Shown in pieces: positions 38,346 through 54,151 of a stretch of 64,000 bases of DNA. The DNA lies in the NCBI RefSeq assembly GCF_009914755.1, contig NC_060928.1. The stretch is one strand, 5' to 3'. The notes beneath the pieces were generated by a model. That model saw nothing but the letters and a program-made list of their open reading frames with translations. It had not been told where the DNA came from and made no database searches. The DNA comes from the human T2T-CHM13v2.0 reference genome, Homo sapiens. Position numbers and translations under genes: made by a program. Each line of letters starts with the position of its first letter. The first letter of the stretch is position 1.

Positions 38346-39224
38346 CCCCCTGACTAGAAGACTCCATCTTCAACCATTTAACTTACAAACCTTCACACCT
38401 GCCCTGATTTGTTGTCCACAGGATACCAGAGAGCAGTAACCCCTCTTCTCTGTAAGACAACTCATTTTTCTTCCTTTTATGCTCAGCCTCTTCCTCTCAG
38501 TTATTTAATAGATTATCCTCACAGTTATTTTAACCTTACTCAAGCCTCTGACATTATAATAAGGTAAGGGAGGGAAGAATAGAGGAAGGAAGGAAGAAAT
38601 CTGCCTTAACACCATGTTAACCCATAACTAATTCTCTTCTGATGCAAACTTTGCAGAAGAGCTATTTCTGCTCTTTGCCTGCACTTCCTCCCCTCCAACT
38701 CACTCTCCCAGCTGTCTCAATACATCTCCCCACCACCACTACTCCATACAATCAGCACTCACTAATGAACTTCTTGTGCCTAACTTCAAAGGACATATTT
38801 CAGGCTTCATCATCCTTGACTTTCCAGCAGAAATATTAAGTTCCCTTTGCTTCCGTGATTTAAGTCCTTTCTTTCTCTGGCCACTTCTGTGTGTCCTTTC
38901 CAGGCATATATTCTTCTATCCTGCCATTAAATATTGCTGTCCTTCAAGACTCACTCCATTCTAAAGGCAATGACAACAACAACTAAGACTCATTCTTGGC
39001 TATCCATTCTTCATAGACCAAACCAGGGTGAATTTTTTAAAATAGCTCACCATGTCATCATGTCAGTCCTCTACTTAAAACTCTTCAATGACTTTATTTT
39101 GTTGCACTGAGGATAAAGACCATAATCTTTAAGGCAGTGTATATAATCTGGCCCCTGCTTGCCATGTATACCTAGAGACAGAAGTTTGAAAAAGAGAAAA
39201 AAAATTTAAAGATGTGCCAGAAAT

Positions 39225-42478: not shown

Positions 42479-43799
42479 AATCATTCTTTTCACACATTTA
42501 CATTCCCACAATGGATTGAATACATTCTGATTAAAAAATAATATATATTTATTGTAAAAAATGTAACATGGAAAACTACAAGAAAAAAAATCATTCATAA
42601 TTTTACTTCCAGATATAATCATTTTTAAGATTTGGTGCGTGTCCATCCAATCAATTTCCCAATTTTTACATAGCAACAAAAAACTGAATATACAATTTTG
42701 TCTCCTGAATATTTACTAAAGTTTAAGTCATAAATATTTTTCTTATGCCATTAAGCATTTTATTTAAACTTCCTTTTAATAAATATATATTAGATCACTG
42801 TATGAATGAACTTTAACCTACGTAGGTAGTTATATTAATTTGGGACATTTATACCTTTCATATTTTTGCTGTAATAATGTACTGCAATGAACATCACGAC
42901 CCTCACTTTTTATCATTTCCTTGGGGTTAATTTCTGAATCAAAAGACATGAACATTTTCAGATTCTTGATGCAGTGGACTCAAGAACACAGGTACAGTGT
43001 AGACCAGGGGTAAGGCAACTTACTGAAAAGAGAGGAATTAAGTAAAAGTCTATATGCTAAGAGATGGGGCCTCCATCATTCACCCTCTTAACCCACTTGG
43101 CAGCCAGAAAGACATCCCTGATTGGAGAAATGGACCTAAGAGAAAAGATCGGCAGATAATGACATTTAGAGGTCCTACAGTAAGTAGCCAAGTCCCAGCT
43201 AATTACCCTAAAGTTTAAAGTTAATCTATTACCATTTATCATTAATCTGTAATCTATAACCTATGATAGCTCACATTTTAAACTATTACGCTCCAGTTTC
43301 TCCATTTATTCTCCTTCAGTGGTTCCCCTTACCATTCTGGCCTGTTCTGACTTAGGGACAGTCTACAGTAGGAAGTCACACACGCGTCACTTTTCCCACG
43401 ATGGAAAAACCACCAAGCTAATTTTGTCTTCTCTTTGACCACAGGCCATAGAATAGTTCACTGAAATACCTAATGCCCTAGAGTAGAGACTGTCTCCTGG
43501 GGTCAAGTATATTTTAAAGCAAATAAATCCCCCCAAAAGAGAATAAAGCCACACTAGACAAGTCAGAGTCCACCTTTTATTCACTCTTGTACCTCCAAGG
43601 ACTAGAACTCGGCCTGGCACATAGCAAGTGGTAATACACATTTGCACGGACGGATGAATGTATATGGCTTCTTTAGGCTGAATTAAAACTCCCACCAAGA
43701 GCAGACAACTACCTTGCCTCTTCCCCACTCGTTTTCGGGTCTTCCACAGAGCAGCCAGAGCCTCAGAGGCCCTTGAGAGTTTCCTCCACTCCTCCCTTG

Positions 43800-44900
43800 T
43801 TTGCAGCGCTAGAAGCTGCAGGTGGTAGTTCCTACACTGGGGGCGGCGCCTGGACGCGGGTGTCCCTGGCCAAGGCGGCCTCGCTGTCCTGGAAGGGAGG
43901 GTGAAGAGCTGCATCCCGCACTAGGCGGCGAAAGAGGGCAGCGCCAAGCGGCGGGGTCCGGAGGCGCTCGACGGCTCGCGCCCAGCGCCGGAGACGGGCT
44001 GTGTGTTGGGCCAGTGGAAGACACCGGAGAAACCCAGACGTGGAAGACCGGGCAGCCTGGACTTCGCGAGCCCTGGTGGGGCTGGCGGCCCACAGAGCCC
44101 CCACCTGCCCCGAGCTCCCACAGCGAGGAGTGGCCGCGCCGCCCGCCAGTGCGCCGGGCTCCGAGACCGGCAGGGGAGCACGCGGGCGAAGGAGGGGCCG
44201 CCGTCGCTGACACCACCGCCTTCAGCCCTTGGCTTCCGCGCGTCGGAGGCTGGCACCTCCAGGTTCACCGCGGCGGCCGGAGCTGTGCGGGGGCCAGACG
44301 GTTCGGCGGGAGCCGGGGCTGGGACGTGGGTGACCTGTCGTCCGCCCCTGTAGCGAGTCTCCAGTGGGCATGTTTCAGGTGGGCAGGTCCAGCATCCCCA
44401 AACCTGCCCCCCGCAGCCTGGAGGACCTGGACTCAGTGCAGCGTGTCCTGTTACACAGGTCAGTGCAGGGCCCCGGGACGCGGGGCGAGACCGTCCTCTT
44501 GCCCCGGGAATGTTGGCGAGGGAGGGGCCGCTTTTCTTTCTGGGGTCTTTCTGGAAGCATCTGACTTGGGATTCGCCTTAGTGCGGCGCTGGCCGCGAAG
44601 GGCCGTTGGGACCTGCACCCCACCCTTTCCAGAATCGGGTGCCAGCGATCCACCCTGTCCCGCTGCCGAGACTGGCCCCGCGCGGGTCCCGGTCACCCAT
44701 CTCCTCCGGAAAACGCTACCTTAGGAAGAAGAGAAAGAAAGATTAAGCGAAGCTGTCCCTTAACACCTCCAGGCTTCTTCCAGCAAGCTAAGAGTTTTGT
44801 TTGAACTTTAGTTGTGACTGGAATGGAAAAGAGCTTCTTTTCTAACAAATCTAATTCTACCCCACCCCCCCAACACGCGCGCGCATGCGCTTGCGCCCAC
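43800..44900. promoter_or_regulatory. CpG island; candidate distal INTU promoter
   Basis: Unique GC- and CpG-dense block in AT-rich surroundings; GC-box-like CCGCCCC at ~44342; NRF1 palindrome GCGCATGCGC at 44881-44890. Confidence 0.85.
44370..44458 (+). CDS. INTU: Candidate alternative first coding exon of INTU (MFQVGRSSIPKPAPRSLEDLDSVQRVLLH, phase 2)
   Basis: GGCATG start, 89 nt, donor CAG|GTCAGT at 44459; same phase as canonical exon 1. Confidence 0.55.
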
Positions 44901-47900
44901 ACACCAAAAACTGCACAAAAGAAATTTAAGAGTTTCTCTAGGAAGAATGAGAACCCTAACTTTCTGTAAGCTGCTAGTGCATTAATTTTCACTGCTGGTA
45001 CTTTCGTCCAACCTTATCCTTTATGCAAAATAGACTAACAAATATTAAATCCTGTGGTTACAGTGATGGGTTTATAGAAGAGAAAGAAATAGTCCACATG
45101 AAGAGCAAATTGTCTTTCAATTTTAAGAGAGGATGGATGAAATACCAAGCAGTTAATGCTGCTTTAGTTCTAGGAAGGCCTGGCCTTCATAAGACGTTGT
45201 AGGGAAAAAGAACTCTTAGAAATATATCTAAAGTGTCTCTTGAATACGTTTGTGGCGAGAAAGAGTAAGTGGCGCTTAGTAAATATCTGTCAGGGGGAGG
45301 TTTATGTGAGCCCTCTCATCTGTAAACGTTTCAAGTGGCCCTTTTAAGTCTTTGTACAAAACCATATGAGCTGTAGAAATCCTGTTCTATTGGAAGTGTG
45401 AGTAAAAAAGAAAGTGTGCAAGGGAGAAATTGGGTGTCTGCGATTTCAGAGCTGTCTTCTGAAACCTGCAATTTTCTGCAGTTGGTTTCCCCCAACCCCC
45501 AAAGAGCCCCTGCCATATAAAAGAAAATATTATTAAACGAGCTGTGAAAAGGATATTCTGCTAAATTCCCAAAGAAAATTCCCCCTGCATTTGATAAAAT
45601 TATAGTCCAGGAATAAATCCCAAGAAGCATTAACTAAAAACACATTCACAGCATGACTTTGTTGTAAAGCCGGGAGGGGTGCTAATTTTAAAAGCTTAAG
45701 ACCTTGCTGCAACAGAATTTCTTTATATTTCTCATGTTTTAAATGTCAAGTGCCAAAAAATTTCAAACTGATGAACACTTTAGGGTTTCAGATCCAAGGC
45801 ACAAACCTGTCCGAATAAACCAGGCAAAAGAATATGTTTAAGCTATAGTCATCAAGACTGAGATGATTATTTCGGAAGTAGTGGAATATTTTTAGAATAA
45901 CCTGCTCAGTATTACAATGAAAAACTACTTTATCTGAATTACAAATAACTGCTCCCATATGCTGGAGGAACCAATGGAATCTGGAACTATAAATATGTTT
46001 GTCAGTATCATGGCTAACAGTGCTTTCTTTTTAACATTATACGAAAATCTTTTTGCTACTGCAATGCATTACTCTTATTAGTGGTTATTTATTATTTAAT
46101 GTTTTCAAACACGCACTTAAAAAACTTAGACATCTGTAGAGGTTTCTCTTTCATTTAATGCATCTGTGTTTCACACAAGTTCACATCTAATCAAATGTCT
46201 TTTGCTTGTATATATACAGATTTGTTTAGGCATAATATTATAGAAATTAGGGAGATTTGATAACCCTTAAATCATACTTGTACTTATCATAGTTCTCATG
46301 AAGTATATCAATGCATGGCCTATTTTAAAAGTATTACTGTTACAAAACTTTTATGTTTTTCCTTTAAAACATCCATCGTAAATTATATACAAAATTTTGG
46401 CAATTGCATTAAAGAGACTAGTAGCCATGTTATTAAGAGAAAATAACAGACTGTTTTATTTTAACGTGTTACTTTAAAGGGTAAGTCTTGTGAGTGTGTC
46501 CTTTTTTAAATTACTTGTATATTTTCCATTGCAAATATGGTTTTTAAAATGTAAAGCATTAAATTGCTGTGCTTTTGAAAAAGATACTTCAGCCAAACCA
46601 AAATTAAAGCAAAGCTGCAAACTTTTCTCTGCATGAGGTGCTAACTTCAAAATGTCAATTGTAAAATAACAATAGCTCAGCAAAATAAATTTAACTATTC
46701 TGCTTTTTGAAAAAAGTTACACATAAGTTGTCTGAGTCAAGGAAAAGCATCAGTATTGTATTTCTCAGTTACTTAAGTTATTTTTCTGTCATCTTGATTA
46801 TAAGAAATAACCAAACAATACTATTAATACTCAGTATTTTGCAAATTTTTTTAAAAAAACATATGCACAATACTATTGCAAATTAATCATTTCCTTGGAG
46901 TCCTAATTCCTCTGTTGCACAGTAGTTGTGTGACTTGGCAAGACTTTTAACTTATTTATATTTTCCCCTGTTCTTTCTGTAATATAAAGGGATAATACCC
47001 ACCTCACAAGGTGTTGGTGTGAATTTCTGATGATATGGAAGTGCTTTATAAAACTAAAGTTCTGTCAAATATAAGGGATTATGGTAACAACTGTTCTATA
47101 GTAAAAAACTAAAACAAAACACAAAATGATAGTTCCTAAAGATTCTGAGAAGATTCAGCCTGGTGACTTTGCCCAAGGCCTAATAGCTAATGAATGGTGC
47201 TGGTCCAGGCTGGAGTGCTGGTTTTTTGACCCCTAAGCCAATGGAGAGAGTGAACTAGAGGTGATTCTCAAAATTTTTGACGACCCAAATTTCATACTCT
47301 TACCAAAGGTGAAAATATGCAAATTCAAAATACCGCAACTATCCAGAATTCTCAGGGGGTATGCCCAATTAAGTAATATTCCTGTTAGTAAAAGAGTATG
47401 TAATATCTTTTTAAGATCTAAAAATAAAAACTAAAATGAATAATTAAAAAAAACAGCTTTTGAAAATATAATATAAAGTACACACTGCTCTGTTTCTTAA
47501 GGTATAAGGCATTAGATTTCAAGGGTTATCTCATTTGATTTTCAGCAACCCTATAGAGTAGGCAGAGATTATTATTGCTGCCTTCAGATGAGGAAACTGA
47601 CTTTGTCCACTTCCACTTGGTTATTGGTGCCAAAATCAGGATGAGAACTTGGATCCCCTGACTGGAGAATGCATGGCACTTACAGATTATCAAGTGTTTT
47701 TTACAGTCGATGTCAAATTATTGTAGGATTCAACAATGCTGTGAATTTTTTTGTTTTAGGTGCTACTTAGGTCATTTGGCAGTTATTTATAAACTATGGT
47801 TTTTTGTTAATTCTCATGTCTGCCTTTTGTTTTCTACTTTCCTCTTCATCAGCAGATTGTCAGCCATCAACAATTTCCAGGGTTGTTGTATTCCTGTTTT

Positions 47901-53699: not shown

Positions 53700-53945
53700 A
53701 ACAGGTTATGCTGCTCTAAGGAATTGCGTTCCGGAGAGCGTAAGCGGTGAAGTTTTAGCTATTTCTATCCTTCCAACTGAGAAGCCCTCCTGGAAGTTTC
53801 AGCCCATTGGCTGCTTTCTGTTCTCCCTGTTTCTTCTGGGAAGCTTCTCCGTCTCCCTGGCAACGCGACCTGCCACCAATTGCAGCTAAGGATTGGTGGT
53901 CACATGGCCTCTGCCCCTTCCCAAGCAGAGGCAACATGGCGGCCT
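53700..53945 (+). promoter_or_regulatory. INTU: INTU proximal promoter: RFX X-box, CCAAT boxes, TISU/YY1 motif
   Basis: GTCTCCCTGGCAAC 53851-53864; ATTGG 53806 and 53892, CCAAT 53876; CAACATGGCGGC 53932-53943. Confidence 0.8.
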
Positions 53946-53971
53946 TAGCAAGCTATAGCTGCGAGATTTGA
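53936..53971 (+). other. uORF MAALASYSCEI*, in frame with INTU
   Basis: AACATGG strong context; TGA at 53969-53971; ATG lies 69 nt before the main ATG. Confidence 0.65.

Positions 53972-54151
<180 letters not shown>

What the first reader, a model, noticed from the sequence alone, without database searches (positions are those of the whole stretch)
44370..44464. Phase-compatible alternative coding first exon of INTU in a CpG island 9.6 kb upstream
Seen: ATG at 44370 (G at -3) opens 29 codons plus AG (MFQVGRSSIPKPAPRSLEDLDSVQRVLLH), then a good donor CAG|GTCAGT. Its 89 nt give phase 2, the same as canonical exon 1 (146 nt, phase 2). Inference: splicing to exon 2 (outside the window) would swap the acidic, Ser-rich N-terminus for a shorter Pro/basic one. 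INTU would then have two promoters, a CpG/NRF1 one and an RFX/CCAAT one, each with its own N-terminus. This may already be annotated as a minor isoform; I cannot check that here.
Basis: partly seen in the sequence, partly recalled or inferred. Interest (0 to 1): 0.8.

Follow-up and report, generated by a model that had tools for sequence, protein, structure and literature searches.

The report
Conserved upstream first exon of INTU
A short coding exon in a CpG island 9.6 kb upstream of the annotated human INTU start matches the first exon of INTU protein isoforms in many other mammals and more distant INTU proteins, so it is a real alternative start of this cilia gene that human RefSeq does not list.

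Summary
ATG 44370 opens 29 codons plus AG, followed by the donor CAG|GTCAGT, inside the window's only CpG island.

On its own the pattern is not rare: ten similar ATG-to-donor ORFs occur in the window. Comparison with other species decides it.
- 37 non-human proteins carry the same peptide, 29 or 30 residues long, on average 91% identical to human.
- 14 of them join it directly to INTU exon 2 (H|SD[LV]EPEW). 13 of these are named "protein inturned" or isoform X2/X3, from 11 species. One is identical to the presumably mouse chain 7q3e_B.
- Unnamed full-length INTU proteins only 62%, 59% and 37% identical overall also begin with this peptide. The N-terminus is therefore old, and it is better conserved than the RefSeq exon-1 peptide (69-79%).
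- Human exon 2 starts at window 64483 and the junction reads in frame, AG|T = Ser.

Human transcription, splicing and translation could not be tested, and RefSeq lists one transcript only. The NRF1 site lies downstream of the exon, not in its promoter.

Verdict: a real, orthologously annotated alternative first exon. The kind is known; the interest is moderate.

The parts
43501..44950 (.). CpG island, the only one in the 64-kb window. Presumed promoter and leader of exon 1a.
   Evidence: 1450 bp, GC 0.61, CpG observed/expected 0.74, 100 CpGs. GC 0.62-0.77 across 43700-44700. No TSS data were available.
43667..44369 (+). ATG-free stretch upstream of the start codon. Any TSS within it gives an mRNA whose first AUG is 44370. 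The true TSS is unknown.
   Evidence: + strand ATGs in the island are at 43654, 43658, 43664, 44370, 44510, 44823, 44885 and 44947; an in-frame TGA lies 13 codons upstream of the ATG in human.
44370..44458 (+). Coding part of alternative first exon 1a of INTU: 29 codons plus AG, ending in phase 2. Its splice partner, INTU exon 2 (536 nt), lies outside the window at window-equivalent 64483-65018, which is G000:C4:130946483-130947018. The acceptor reads ttctctctttcatag|TGATCTTGAG.
   Evidence: Orthologous peptides in 37 non-human proteins. Human peptide against distant INTU P0058: E 6e-13, 20/29 identical, residues 1-29 to 1-29. Exon 2: match at G000:C4:130946472-130947023; L002 positions 1512-2047, where window coordinate = 62971 + L002 position.
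44459..44464 (+). Splice donor GTCAGT. With the exon end it reads CAG|GTCAGT.
   Evidence: 8/9 to consensus. 19 of the 37 sequences are read-through ORFs that continue R-S-V, as expected if AG|GTCAGT-like sequence is kept.
44881..44890 (.). Perfect NRF1-type palindrome GCGCATGCGC at the 3' edge of the island, downstream of the donor and so inside the intron of exon 1a.
   Evidence: 2 matches at up to 1 mismatch, against 0.12 expected. The motif was recalled from memory.
53927..54150 (+). RefSeq first exon (1b) of INTU, coding 54005-54150. It is the mutually exclusive alternative to exon 1a.
   Evidence: Hub annotation. Donor TGA|GTAAGG matches 5/9; Kozak context is A at -3 and G at +4. An in-frame TGA at 53969 stops any reading from upstream into 1b.

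Best explanation
Positions 44370-44458 are the coding part of a conserved alternative first exon (1a) of INTU. The surrounding CpG island would act as its promoter. The mRNA's first AUG is 44370. The donor at 44459 is spliced to the acceptor of exon 2 at window 64483, skipping the RefSeq first exon (1b). The predicted product is a 923-residue INTU in which the 49 acidic, Ser-rich N-terminal residues are replaced by MFQVGRSSIPKPAPRSLEDLDSVQRVLLH-S. The rest of the protein is unchanged: the PIP-binding region, the PDZ-like domain and the three longin domains.

Shown here: the sequence features, frame compatibility, the human acceptor, orthologous isoforms in other mammals, and the presence of this N-terminus in distant INTU proteins.

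Inferred: that the human island fires as a promoter, that the human junction is used, and that the protein is made. The function of the conserved L-E-D-[LFI]-D-S-[VI]-x-x-[VI]-L motif is unknown. My guess is a short amphipathic helix or docking motif that regulates the flexible N-terminal arm of INTU.
For: - Sequence.
- 30 of 30 listed hits (56 candidates) carry the peptide; 3 of 3. One search adds 4 more (P0055, P0082, P0085, P0090).
- of these 37, 34 have 29 residues and 3 have 30, an in-frame insertion. Identity to human is 21-28 of 29, mean 91%.
- The next residues are SDL or SDV plus EPEW (that is, exon 2) in 14. 13 of those 14 are named inturned or isoform X2/X3. The species are Lynx canadensis, Panthera onca, P. 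pardus, Neofelis nebulosa, Prionailurus iriomotensis, Oryctolagus cuniculus, Cavia porcellus, Erethizon dorsatum, Jaculus jaculus, Microcebus murinus and Rhynchocyon petersi.
- P0055, a 268-residue form, is identical from exon 2 onward to PDB chain 7q3e_B, which is presumably mouse.
- In read-through ORFs, similarity collapses right after H-R-S-V. The conserved block therefore ends at the donor.
- Distant full-length INTU proteins begin with the same peptide joined directly to LEPxW. P0058 is 62% identical overall and matches the human peptide at E 6e-13. P0062 is 59% identical, E 3e-4. P0079 is 37% identical, E 0.031. They carry the Intu longin domains.
- Human exon 2 acceptor and frame.
- The exon 1b peptide is only 69-79% identical between human and the 10 lemur, colugo, bat, camelid, cetacean and deer sequences examined.
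Against: - No human transcript, CAGE, Ribo-seq or proteomic data could be consulted.
- The RefSeq table supplied lists INTU with 1 of 1 transcript and no predicted model using this exon, although human is the best-sampled mammal. It lists no functional element at 44 kb.
- Most supporting isoforms are computational models (X2, X3, Ensembl-derived). These can copy each other by homology and are not independent transcript evidence.
- All 19 ORFs from unnamed contigs read through the donor. No spliced 1a contig was seen, whereas spliced 1b contigs identical to human were (P0032 and P0033). Clustering at 90% could hide spliced 1a forms.
- The Kozak context is moderate (T at +4).
- No human or ape protein with this N-terminus appeared. 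Clustering could hide these too.
- Nine full-text searches found nothing in print.
- The match to the 37%-identity proteins is weak (E 0.031 for P0079; no BLASTP alignment to P0089).
Confidence: 0.8

Rival explanations
1. The exon is a true INTU first exon in other mammals but is silent or negligibly used in human. The human frame is intact only because any loss of use was recent, or because the DNA is kept for promoter or enhancer reasons.
For: RefSeq lists only one human transcript (hub annotation). No human or ape protein with this N-terminus was seen. Spliced 1b contigs identical to human were seen (P0032 and P0033), but no spliced 1a ones.
Against: The human ATG, frame, donor and exon-2 acceptor are all intact. 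The island keeps a CpG observed/expected ratio of 0.7-0.9. By general knowledge, that requires absence of germline methylation. A strepsirrhine primate, Microcebus, has the isoform annotated. Clustering at 90% identity would hide human isoforms that differ only in 30 residues.
Confidence: 0.13
2. The exon is transcribed and spliced but serves as a non-coding leader or promoter-associated RNA. The open frame would then be conserved as DNA, not as protein.
For: CpG-island promoters and 5' UTRs can be conserved at the DNA level. The 8 or so codons upstream of the ATG are also similar between species (...CSESQVG-M). AlphaFold2 gave no confident fold for the N-terminal 211 residues (mean pLDDT 40).
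Against: Length differences come in whole codons: 3 of 37 sequences have +1 residue, and none is frameshifted. The peptide is recognisable in INTU proteins only 59-62% identical overall, exactly at residue 1 and joined to exon 2. No nucleotide alignment was available to test how much DNA similarity survives at that distance. No other ATG precedes it for 700 nt.
Confidence: 0.05
3. It is a chance ORF next to a chance donor-like 9-mer.
For: Ten comparable ATG-ORF-donor configurations occur in the window by the crude scan.
Against: 37 orthologous copies with a preserved frame, 14 of them annotated as or spliced into INTU.
Confidence: 0.02

Closest known systems
Predicted 'protein inturned isoform X2/X3' (NCBI) and Ensembl-derived UniProt entries of other mammals, e.g. 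Microcebus murinus isoform X2 (923 aa, P0024), Lynx canadensis A0A667GVB5/A0A667GVA6, Cavia porcellus A0A286Y4T7
   Same: They share the 29-residue N-terminal peptide (27-28 of 29 identical to human), the same junction (H|S-D-L/V-E-P-E-W) and the same downstream protein. The predicted human product would have the same length as the Microcebus isoform, 923 aa.
   Different: The human version has Ser where most species have Asn at residue 16. It is absent from the RefSeq annotation supplied with the window. I could not see whether GENCODE or UniProt list a human equivalent.
RefSeq INTU NM_015693.4 (first exon 1b, 53927-54150)
   Same: It uses the same gene, the same acceptor (exon 2) and the same phase (2). 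Both exons are first exons with their own ATG.
   Different: - Exon 1b encodes 48 residues plus a split codon, an acidic Ser-rich peptide. It is 69-79% conserved outside anthropoids, against about 91% for 1a.
- Its promoter is not a CpG island. It carries CCAAT/ATTGG boxes and an X-box-like site.
- It has a stronger Kozak context but a weaker donor, 5/9 against 8/9.
- All solved INTU structures found carry 1b (7q3d, 7q3e, 9rs8/9rs9).
Distant full-length INTU proteins, unnamed representatives P0058, P0062, P0079 and P0089; probably non-placental vertebrates (inference from 62-37% identity)
   Same: They start with MF..., carry the L-[ED]-D-[FI]-D-S-[IV]-x-x-[IV]-L-x-[HY] block, and continue directly into LEPxW...GELFYLE.
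   Different: The linker between MF and the block varies in length and sequence. The human peptide aligns to them at E 6e-13 (P0058), 3e-4 (P0062) and 0.031 (P0079), and not at all to P0089.

Membership tests
Alternative first coding exon of a protein-coding gene (alternative promoter use) | Own start codon, with an open frame up to a splice donor | tested here: met
   ATG 44370, 29 codons plus AG, donor CAG|GTCAGT.
Alternative first coding exon of a protein-coding gene (alternative promoter use) | Phase compatible with the shared downstream exon, so that the common reading frame continues | tested here: met
   89 nt and 146 nt both leave phase 2. Human exon 2 starts T GAT CTT GAG at window 64483, giving AG|T = Ser and then DLEPEW.
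Alternative first coding exon of a protein-coding gene (alternative promoter use) | Mutually exclusive with the other first exon, with no in-frame serial use | tested here: met
   an in-frame TGA at 53969 lies upstream of the 1b ATG. The only in-phase AG sites inside 1b lack pyrimidine tracts.
Alternative first coding exon of a protein-coding gene (alternative promoter use) | Own promoter / transcription start site | tested here: inconclusive
   CpG-island criteria are met and GC boxes are present. No TSS data (CAGE, ESTs) could be reached with these tools.
Alternative first coding exon of a protein-coding gene (alternative promoter use) | Observed transcripts that join it to the downstream exon in this species | not testable with these tools
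   No human RNA data were accessible. Orthologous joined models exist in 11 named species, plus a protein identical to the presumably mouse chain 7q3e_B.
INTU (inturned) protein N-terminus | The peptide sits at residue 1 of proteins that carry the Intu longin domains PF19031, PF19032 and PF19033 | tested here: met
   One search gives the precomputed Pfam columns. One search covers P0024, P0058 and P0079. Searches give the sequences.
INTU (inturned) protein N-terminus | Conserved as protein: frame kept, indels in whole codons, conservation ending at the exon border | tested here: met
   34 sequences of 29 aa and 3 of 30 aa, mean 91% identity, with similarity lost after H-R-S-V in read-through ORFs. 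Nucleotide-level dN/dS was not testable because no orthologous DNA was available.
CpG-island promoter | At least 500 bp with GC of 0.55 or more and CpG observed/expected of 0.65 or more | tested here: met
   43501-44950.
   the only perfect GCGCATGCGC is at 44881-44890, downstream of the donor; none in 43500-44460.

The most novel reading that the evidence does not exclude
Exon 1a, not the RefSeq/MANE exon, may encode the ancestral INTU N-terminus, a docking motif L-E-D-Φ-D-S-Φ-x-x-Φ-L that goes back at least to the divergence of the 37%-identity homologs. The 1a motif and the acidic Ser-rich 1b module may once have lain in tandem in one N-terminus, as the distant protein P0087 seems to show by eye. 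In tetrapods or mammals they would then have become mutually exclusive first exons with separate promoters: a CpG-island promoter, and an RFX/CCAAT-type, cilia-coupled one. The two INTU proteoforms would then serve different programmes, for example general trafficking or planar polarity versus ciliogenesis. All structural and biochemical work found so far has examined only the younger form, and variants in exon 1a are invisible to RefSeq-based ciliopathy diagnostics.
Probability: 0.2. Interest if true: 0.6.

Novelty: already known. Interest (0 to 1): 0.4.

Why it matters
INTU is a subunit of the CPLANE complex and, with Fuzzy, a Rab23 GEF (abstracts listed); CPLANE proteins are mutated in ciliopathies (abstract of PMC9012472). 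That INTU itself is a ciliopathy gene is recalled, not shown by a call.

If the 1a isoform is made in human:
- The reference protein used for variant interpretation, antibodies, constructs and structures lacks the most conserved part of the N-terminus.
- Start-loss or donor variants at T2T chr4:130,926,370-130,926,464 would be classed as intergenic by RefSeq-based pipelines.
- Two promoters of different type would offer a simple handle on how one gene serves both ubiquitous and cilia-specific programmes.

The N-terminal ~300 residues of Intu are unresolved in the cryo-EM maps. A 47-267 construct of mouse Intu suffices for PIP binding (PMC9012472, passages read). The swapped segment therefore lies outside what has been mapped.

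Tried and rejected
- **Literature.** Nine full-text searches found nothing on an upstream INTU exon, promoter or this peptide:
  - INTU with alternative promoter;
  - the 29-aa peptide;
  - coordinates recalled from memory (only noise);
  - INTU with CpG island and hypermethylated (listing only, papers not read);
  - four peptide pieces;
  - CPLANE, inturned, isoform (listing only);
  - CPLANE cryo-EM;
  - INTU with alternative first exon;
  - Intu with exon 1a and exon 1b.

  The word 'isoform' occurs 0 times in PMC9012472 and PMC12383261. Supplements were not consulted.
- **Structure.** AlphaFold2 on the 211-residue guinea-pig 1a fragment, with a 13-sequence alignment (A1), gave mean pLDDT 40.4 and pTM 0.18, with only a 6-residue helix at 23-28. 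This is uninformative. No fold search was run on it.
- **Serial use of 1a then 1b,** as in the Camelus ferus model P0013, is rejected for human because of the in-frame TGA at 53969.
- **Deep homology of the acidic 1b module.** By eye it resembles the N-termini of P0073 and P0081 and an insert in P0087. BLASTP does not align them at the right place, and the 1a motif in P0087 scores only E 0.29. The tandem-ancestor idea therefore stays a speculation.
- **Retrocopies.** Genome search for retrocopies of the exon found only the locus itself (in one search no other match covered query residues 1-33).
- **RFX box.** It is not significant as a motif count.
- **Not used:** Complex prediction, the protein atlas and RNA tools, because no claim here needs them.

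Full report
**1. The observation**

- ATG at 44370 sits in the context gtgggcATGtt.
- It opens 29 codons, MFQVGRSSIPKPAPRSLEDLDSVQRVLLH, with AG left over.
- The junction then reads CAG|GTCAGT, with the intron starting at 44459.
- The 89 nt end in phase 2. So do the 146 coding nt of the RefSeq first exon (54005-54150).

The exon lies in the only CpG island of the window: 43501-44950, GC 0.61, observed/expected CpG 0.74. It is the only ATG on the + strand between 43664 and 44510. Its donor is the only site on the + strand of the island that matches 8 of 9 consensus positions.

As a bare pattern it is not unusual. A crude scan finds five ATG ORFs of at least 20 codons open up to such a donor on each strand of the window, and three of the five on the + strand are phase 2. 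The raw observation alone could be chance.

**2. What it is**

*Search results.* I searched the 64-residue read-through ORF (44370-44561) against the large protein database.
- Among longer proteins it returned 30 hits from 56 candidates. All 30 contain the peptide.
- Among proteins of similar length it returned 3 of 3.
- A search of the representative library with the guinea-pig fragment P0021 added four more.

*The 37 non-human sequences.*
- 34 have exactly 29 residues from M to H. Three rodent-like ones have 30, a whole-codon insertion.
- Identity to human is 21-28 of 29, mean 91%.
- In 14, the peptide is followed by S-D-[LV]-E-P-E-W-L-D..., which is INTU exon 2.
- 13 of those 14 are named by their sources as protein inturned or inturned isoform X2/X3. 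They come from five cats, rabbit, guinea pig, porcupine, jerboa, mouse lemur and an elephant shrew. That covers Laurasiatheria, Euarchontoglires and Afrotheria (taxonomic placement from general knowledge).
- The fourteenth, P0055 (268 aa), is identical from exon 2 onward to PDB chain 7q3e_B. The paper behind 7q3d and 7q3e solved human and mouse complexes. 7q3d_B carries the human exon-2 sequence. P0055 is therefore presumably mouse.
- 19 are ORFs on short unnamed contigs that read through the donor as H-R-S-V, as AG|GTCAGT would give. Their sequences then diverge at once. The conserved block stops at the splice site.
- Four continue differently. Two of them, Camelus ferus P0013 and Galemys P0030, are odd gene models that still reach INTU exon 2 further on. 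The other two are the Rangifer fragment P0019 and the unnamed P0090.

*The human junction.* A six-frame search of the window's own genome with the mouse-lemur isoform found all INTU exons. These included exon 1a (130926370-130926468, E 1.4e-7) and exon 2 (130946472-130947023). The exon-2 acceptor is ttctctctttcatag|TGATCTTGAG at window 64483, which is 483 nt beyond the window end. The exon runs to 65018, 536 nt in all.
- Exon 1b gives GA|T = Asp.
- Exon 1a gives AG|T = Ser, then DLEPEW.

This is exactly what the other species' isoforms show. The predicted human product has 942 - 49 + 30 = 923 residues, the length of the Microcebus isoform.

*Serial use of 1a and 1b.* This is excluded in human. 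An in-frame TGA lies at 53969 upstream of the 1b ATG, and no credible in-phase acceptor exists inside 1b.

**3. Age and constraint**

The representative search also returned full-length INTU proteins much more distant than any placental sequence.

| Protein | Identity to mouse-lemur isoform | Human 29-mer by BLASTP |
|---|---|---|
| P0058 | 62% | E 6e-13, 20/29 identical, residues 1-29 to 1-29 |
| P0062 | 59% | E 3e-4 |
| P0079 | 37% | E 0.031 |
| P0089 | 37% | no alignment; HMMER's stretch with the guinea-pig query covers residues 15-62 |

All four begin MF..., carry L-[ED]-D-[FI]-D-S-[IV]-x-x-[IV]-L-x-[HY], and run directly into LEPxW...GELFYLE. P0058 and P0079 were scanned and carry the Intu longin domains. 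The library gives no names. That they are non-placental vertebrates is my inference from the identity levels.

By contrast, the RefSeq exon-1b peptide is only 69-79% identical between human and the ten lemur, colugo, bat, camelid, cetacean and deer sequences I compared. The 'alternative' N-terminus is thus the older and more constrained one.

Two other distant representatives, P0073 and P0081, start with acidic Ser-rich sequence of the 1b type. One, P0087, seems to have a 1a-like motif followed by an acidic Ser-rich insert. These resemblances are by eye only. BLASTP does not support them.

**4. How it most likely works**

*Shown:*
- A start codon that would be the first AUG of any transcript starting in the 700 nt upstream.
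- A consensus-like donor: 8/9, against 5/9 for exon 1b.
- A shared acceptor in the right phase.
- Orthologous isoforms in other species.

*Inferred:* the CpG island is an alternative promoter, and its transcripts skip exon 1b and give a 923-residue INTU.

*The promoter labels need correction.*
- The perfect NRF1 palindrome is at 44881-44890, about 420 nt downstream of the donor. It may mark a further start site or an intronic element.
- Upstream of the ATG I found only GC boxes and one ETS-core match on the opposite strand (CTTCCG at 44233).
- The 1b promoter has CCAAT/ATTGG at 53806, 53876 and 53892. It also has an X-box-like GTCTCCCTGGCAAC at 53851-53864. The X-box count is not above chance.

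*Function of the peptide.* This is unknown.
- The N-terminal ~300 residues of Intu are invisible in the cryo-EM maps. PIP binding maps to residues 47-267 of mouse Intu (PMC9012472, passages). [quoted passage not shown] The swapped residues lie outside everything mapped so far.
- All solved INTU chains found carry 1b.
- AlphaFold2 gave no confident structure.
- The spacing of hydrophobic residues (L-x-x-L-x-x-V-x-x-V-L-L) suggests a short amphipathic helix or linear docking motif. That is a guess.

**5. Against the reading**

- No human expression data could be reached.
- The RefSeq table lists one INTU transcript only and no element at 44 kb.
- The supporting isoforms are largely computational models.
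- No spliced 1a form was seen among unnamed contigs, whereas spliced 1b forms identical to human were (P0032 and P0033).
- Clustering of the databases at 90% or 50% identity would hide human or ape 1a isoforms inside 1b clusters. Their absence is therefore weak evidence.
- I could not check GENCODE or UniProt human entries. I have a vague recollection that Ensembl INTU models extend upstream of the RefSeq start, but no call supports this.

**6. Comparison and novelty**

The closest known things are the predicted inturned isoforms X2/X3 of other mammals, which share the peptide, the junction and the rest of the protein. The kind, an alternative first coding exon with its own CpG-island promoter, is commonplace.

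I file the finding as already known in kind and in orthologs. Two modest new points emerge:
- Human RefSeq lacks the exon.
- The missing N-terminus is the ancient, better-conserved one.

Nine full-text searches found no paper on it. Supplements were not searched.

**7. Verdict**

- Observation confirmed. Interpretation supported, with the promoter motifs corrected.
- Confidence 0.8 that this is a functional alternative INTU first coding exon in human as well as in other mammals.
- Interest 0.4. It is useful for annotation, ciliopathy variant interpretation and CPLANE biochemistry, but not surprising in kind.

Noticed in passing
window 44881-44896: A perfect NRF1-type palindrome GCGCATGCGC sits at the 3' edge of the CpG island, about 420 nt downstream of the exon 1a donor. 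An overlapping 1-mismatch copy follows it. This is 2 matches against 0.12 expected. It could mark a second start site or an intronic element.
   Followed up: partly
window 53806-53896: The RefSeq INTU promoter is not a CpG island. It carries CCAAT at 53876, ATTGG at 53806 and 53892, and an X-box-like GTCTCCCTGGCAAC at 53851-53864, 63-76 nt upstream of the RefSeq start. This fits a cilia-gene promoter, but the motif count is not above chance.
   Followed up: partly
P0087 residues 55-150 (unnamed distant INTU homolog): By eye this protein has a 1a-like motif (LQDFDSISLIVKYS), then an acidic Ser-rich insert resembling exon 1b (DSESSGSFYSDDESD), then LEPVW. The two human alternatives would thus lie in tandem. 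BLASTP gives E 0.29 for the first motif and nothing for the insert.
   Followed up: partly
P0013 (Camelus ferus model); window 53969: One camel gene model joins exon 1a to an upstream-extended exon 1b by reading through the 1b promoter. In human that reading is closed by an in-frame TGA at 53969.
   Followed up: yes
window 44427-44441 and L002 1533-1547 (window-equivalent 64504-64518, outside the window): The pentapeptide LDSVQ occurs in both exon 1a (E-D-LDSVQ-R) and exon 2 (E-W-LDSVQ-K). In the 1a isoform the two copies would start 17 residues apart (residues 20 and 37). This could be coincidence or a small internal repeat.
   Followed up: no
window 43387-43914, minus strand: A 175-codon ATG ORF on the minus strand crosses the 5' edge of the island. 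Minus-strand donor-like sites (7/9) lie at 43712 and 43332. Divergent transcription toward the lncRNA LOC105377412, whose annotated start at 39167 is 4.3 kb away, is possible but untested.
   Followed up: no
window 44459 vs 54151; 44370 vs 54005: The two first exons have opposite signal strengths. Exon 1a has the better donor (8/9 against 5/9 consensus positions) but the weaker Kozak context (G at -3 and T at +4, against A at -3 and G at +4).
   Followed up: yes
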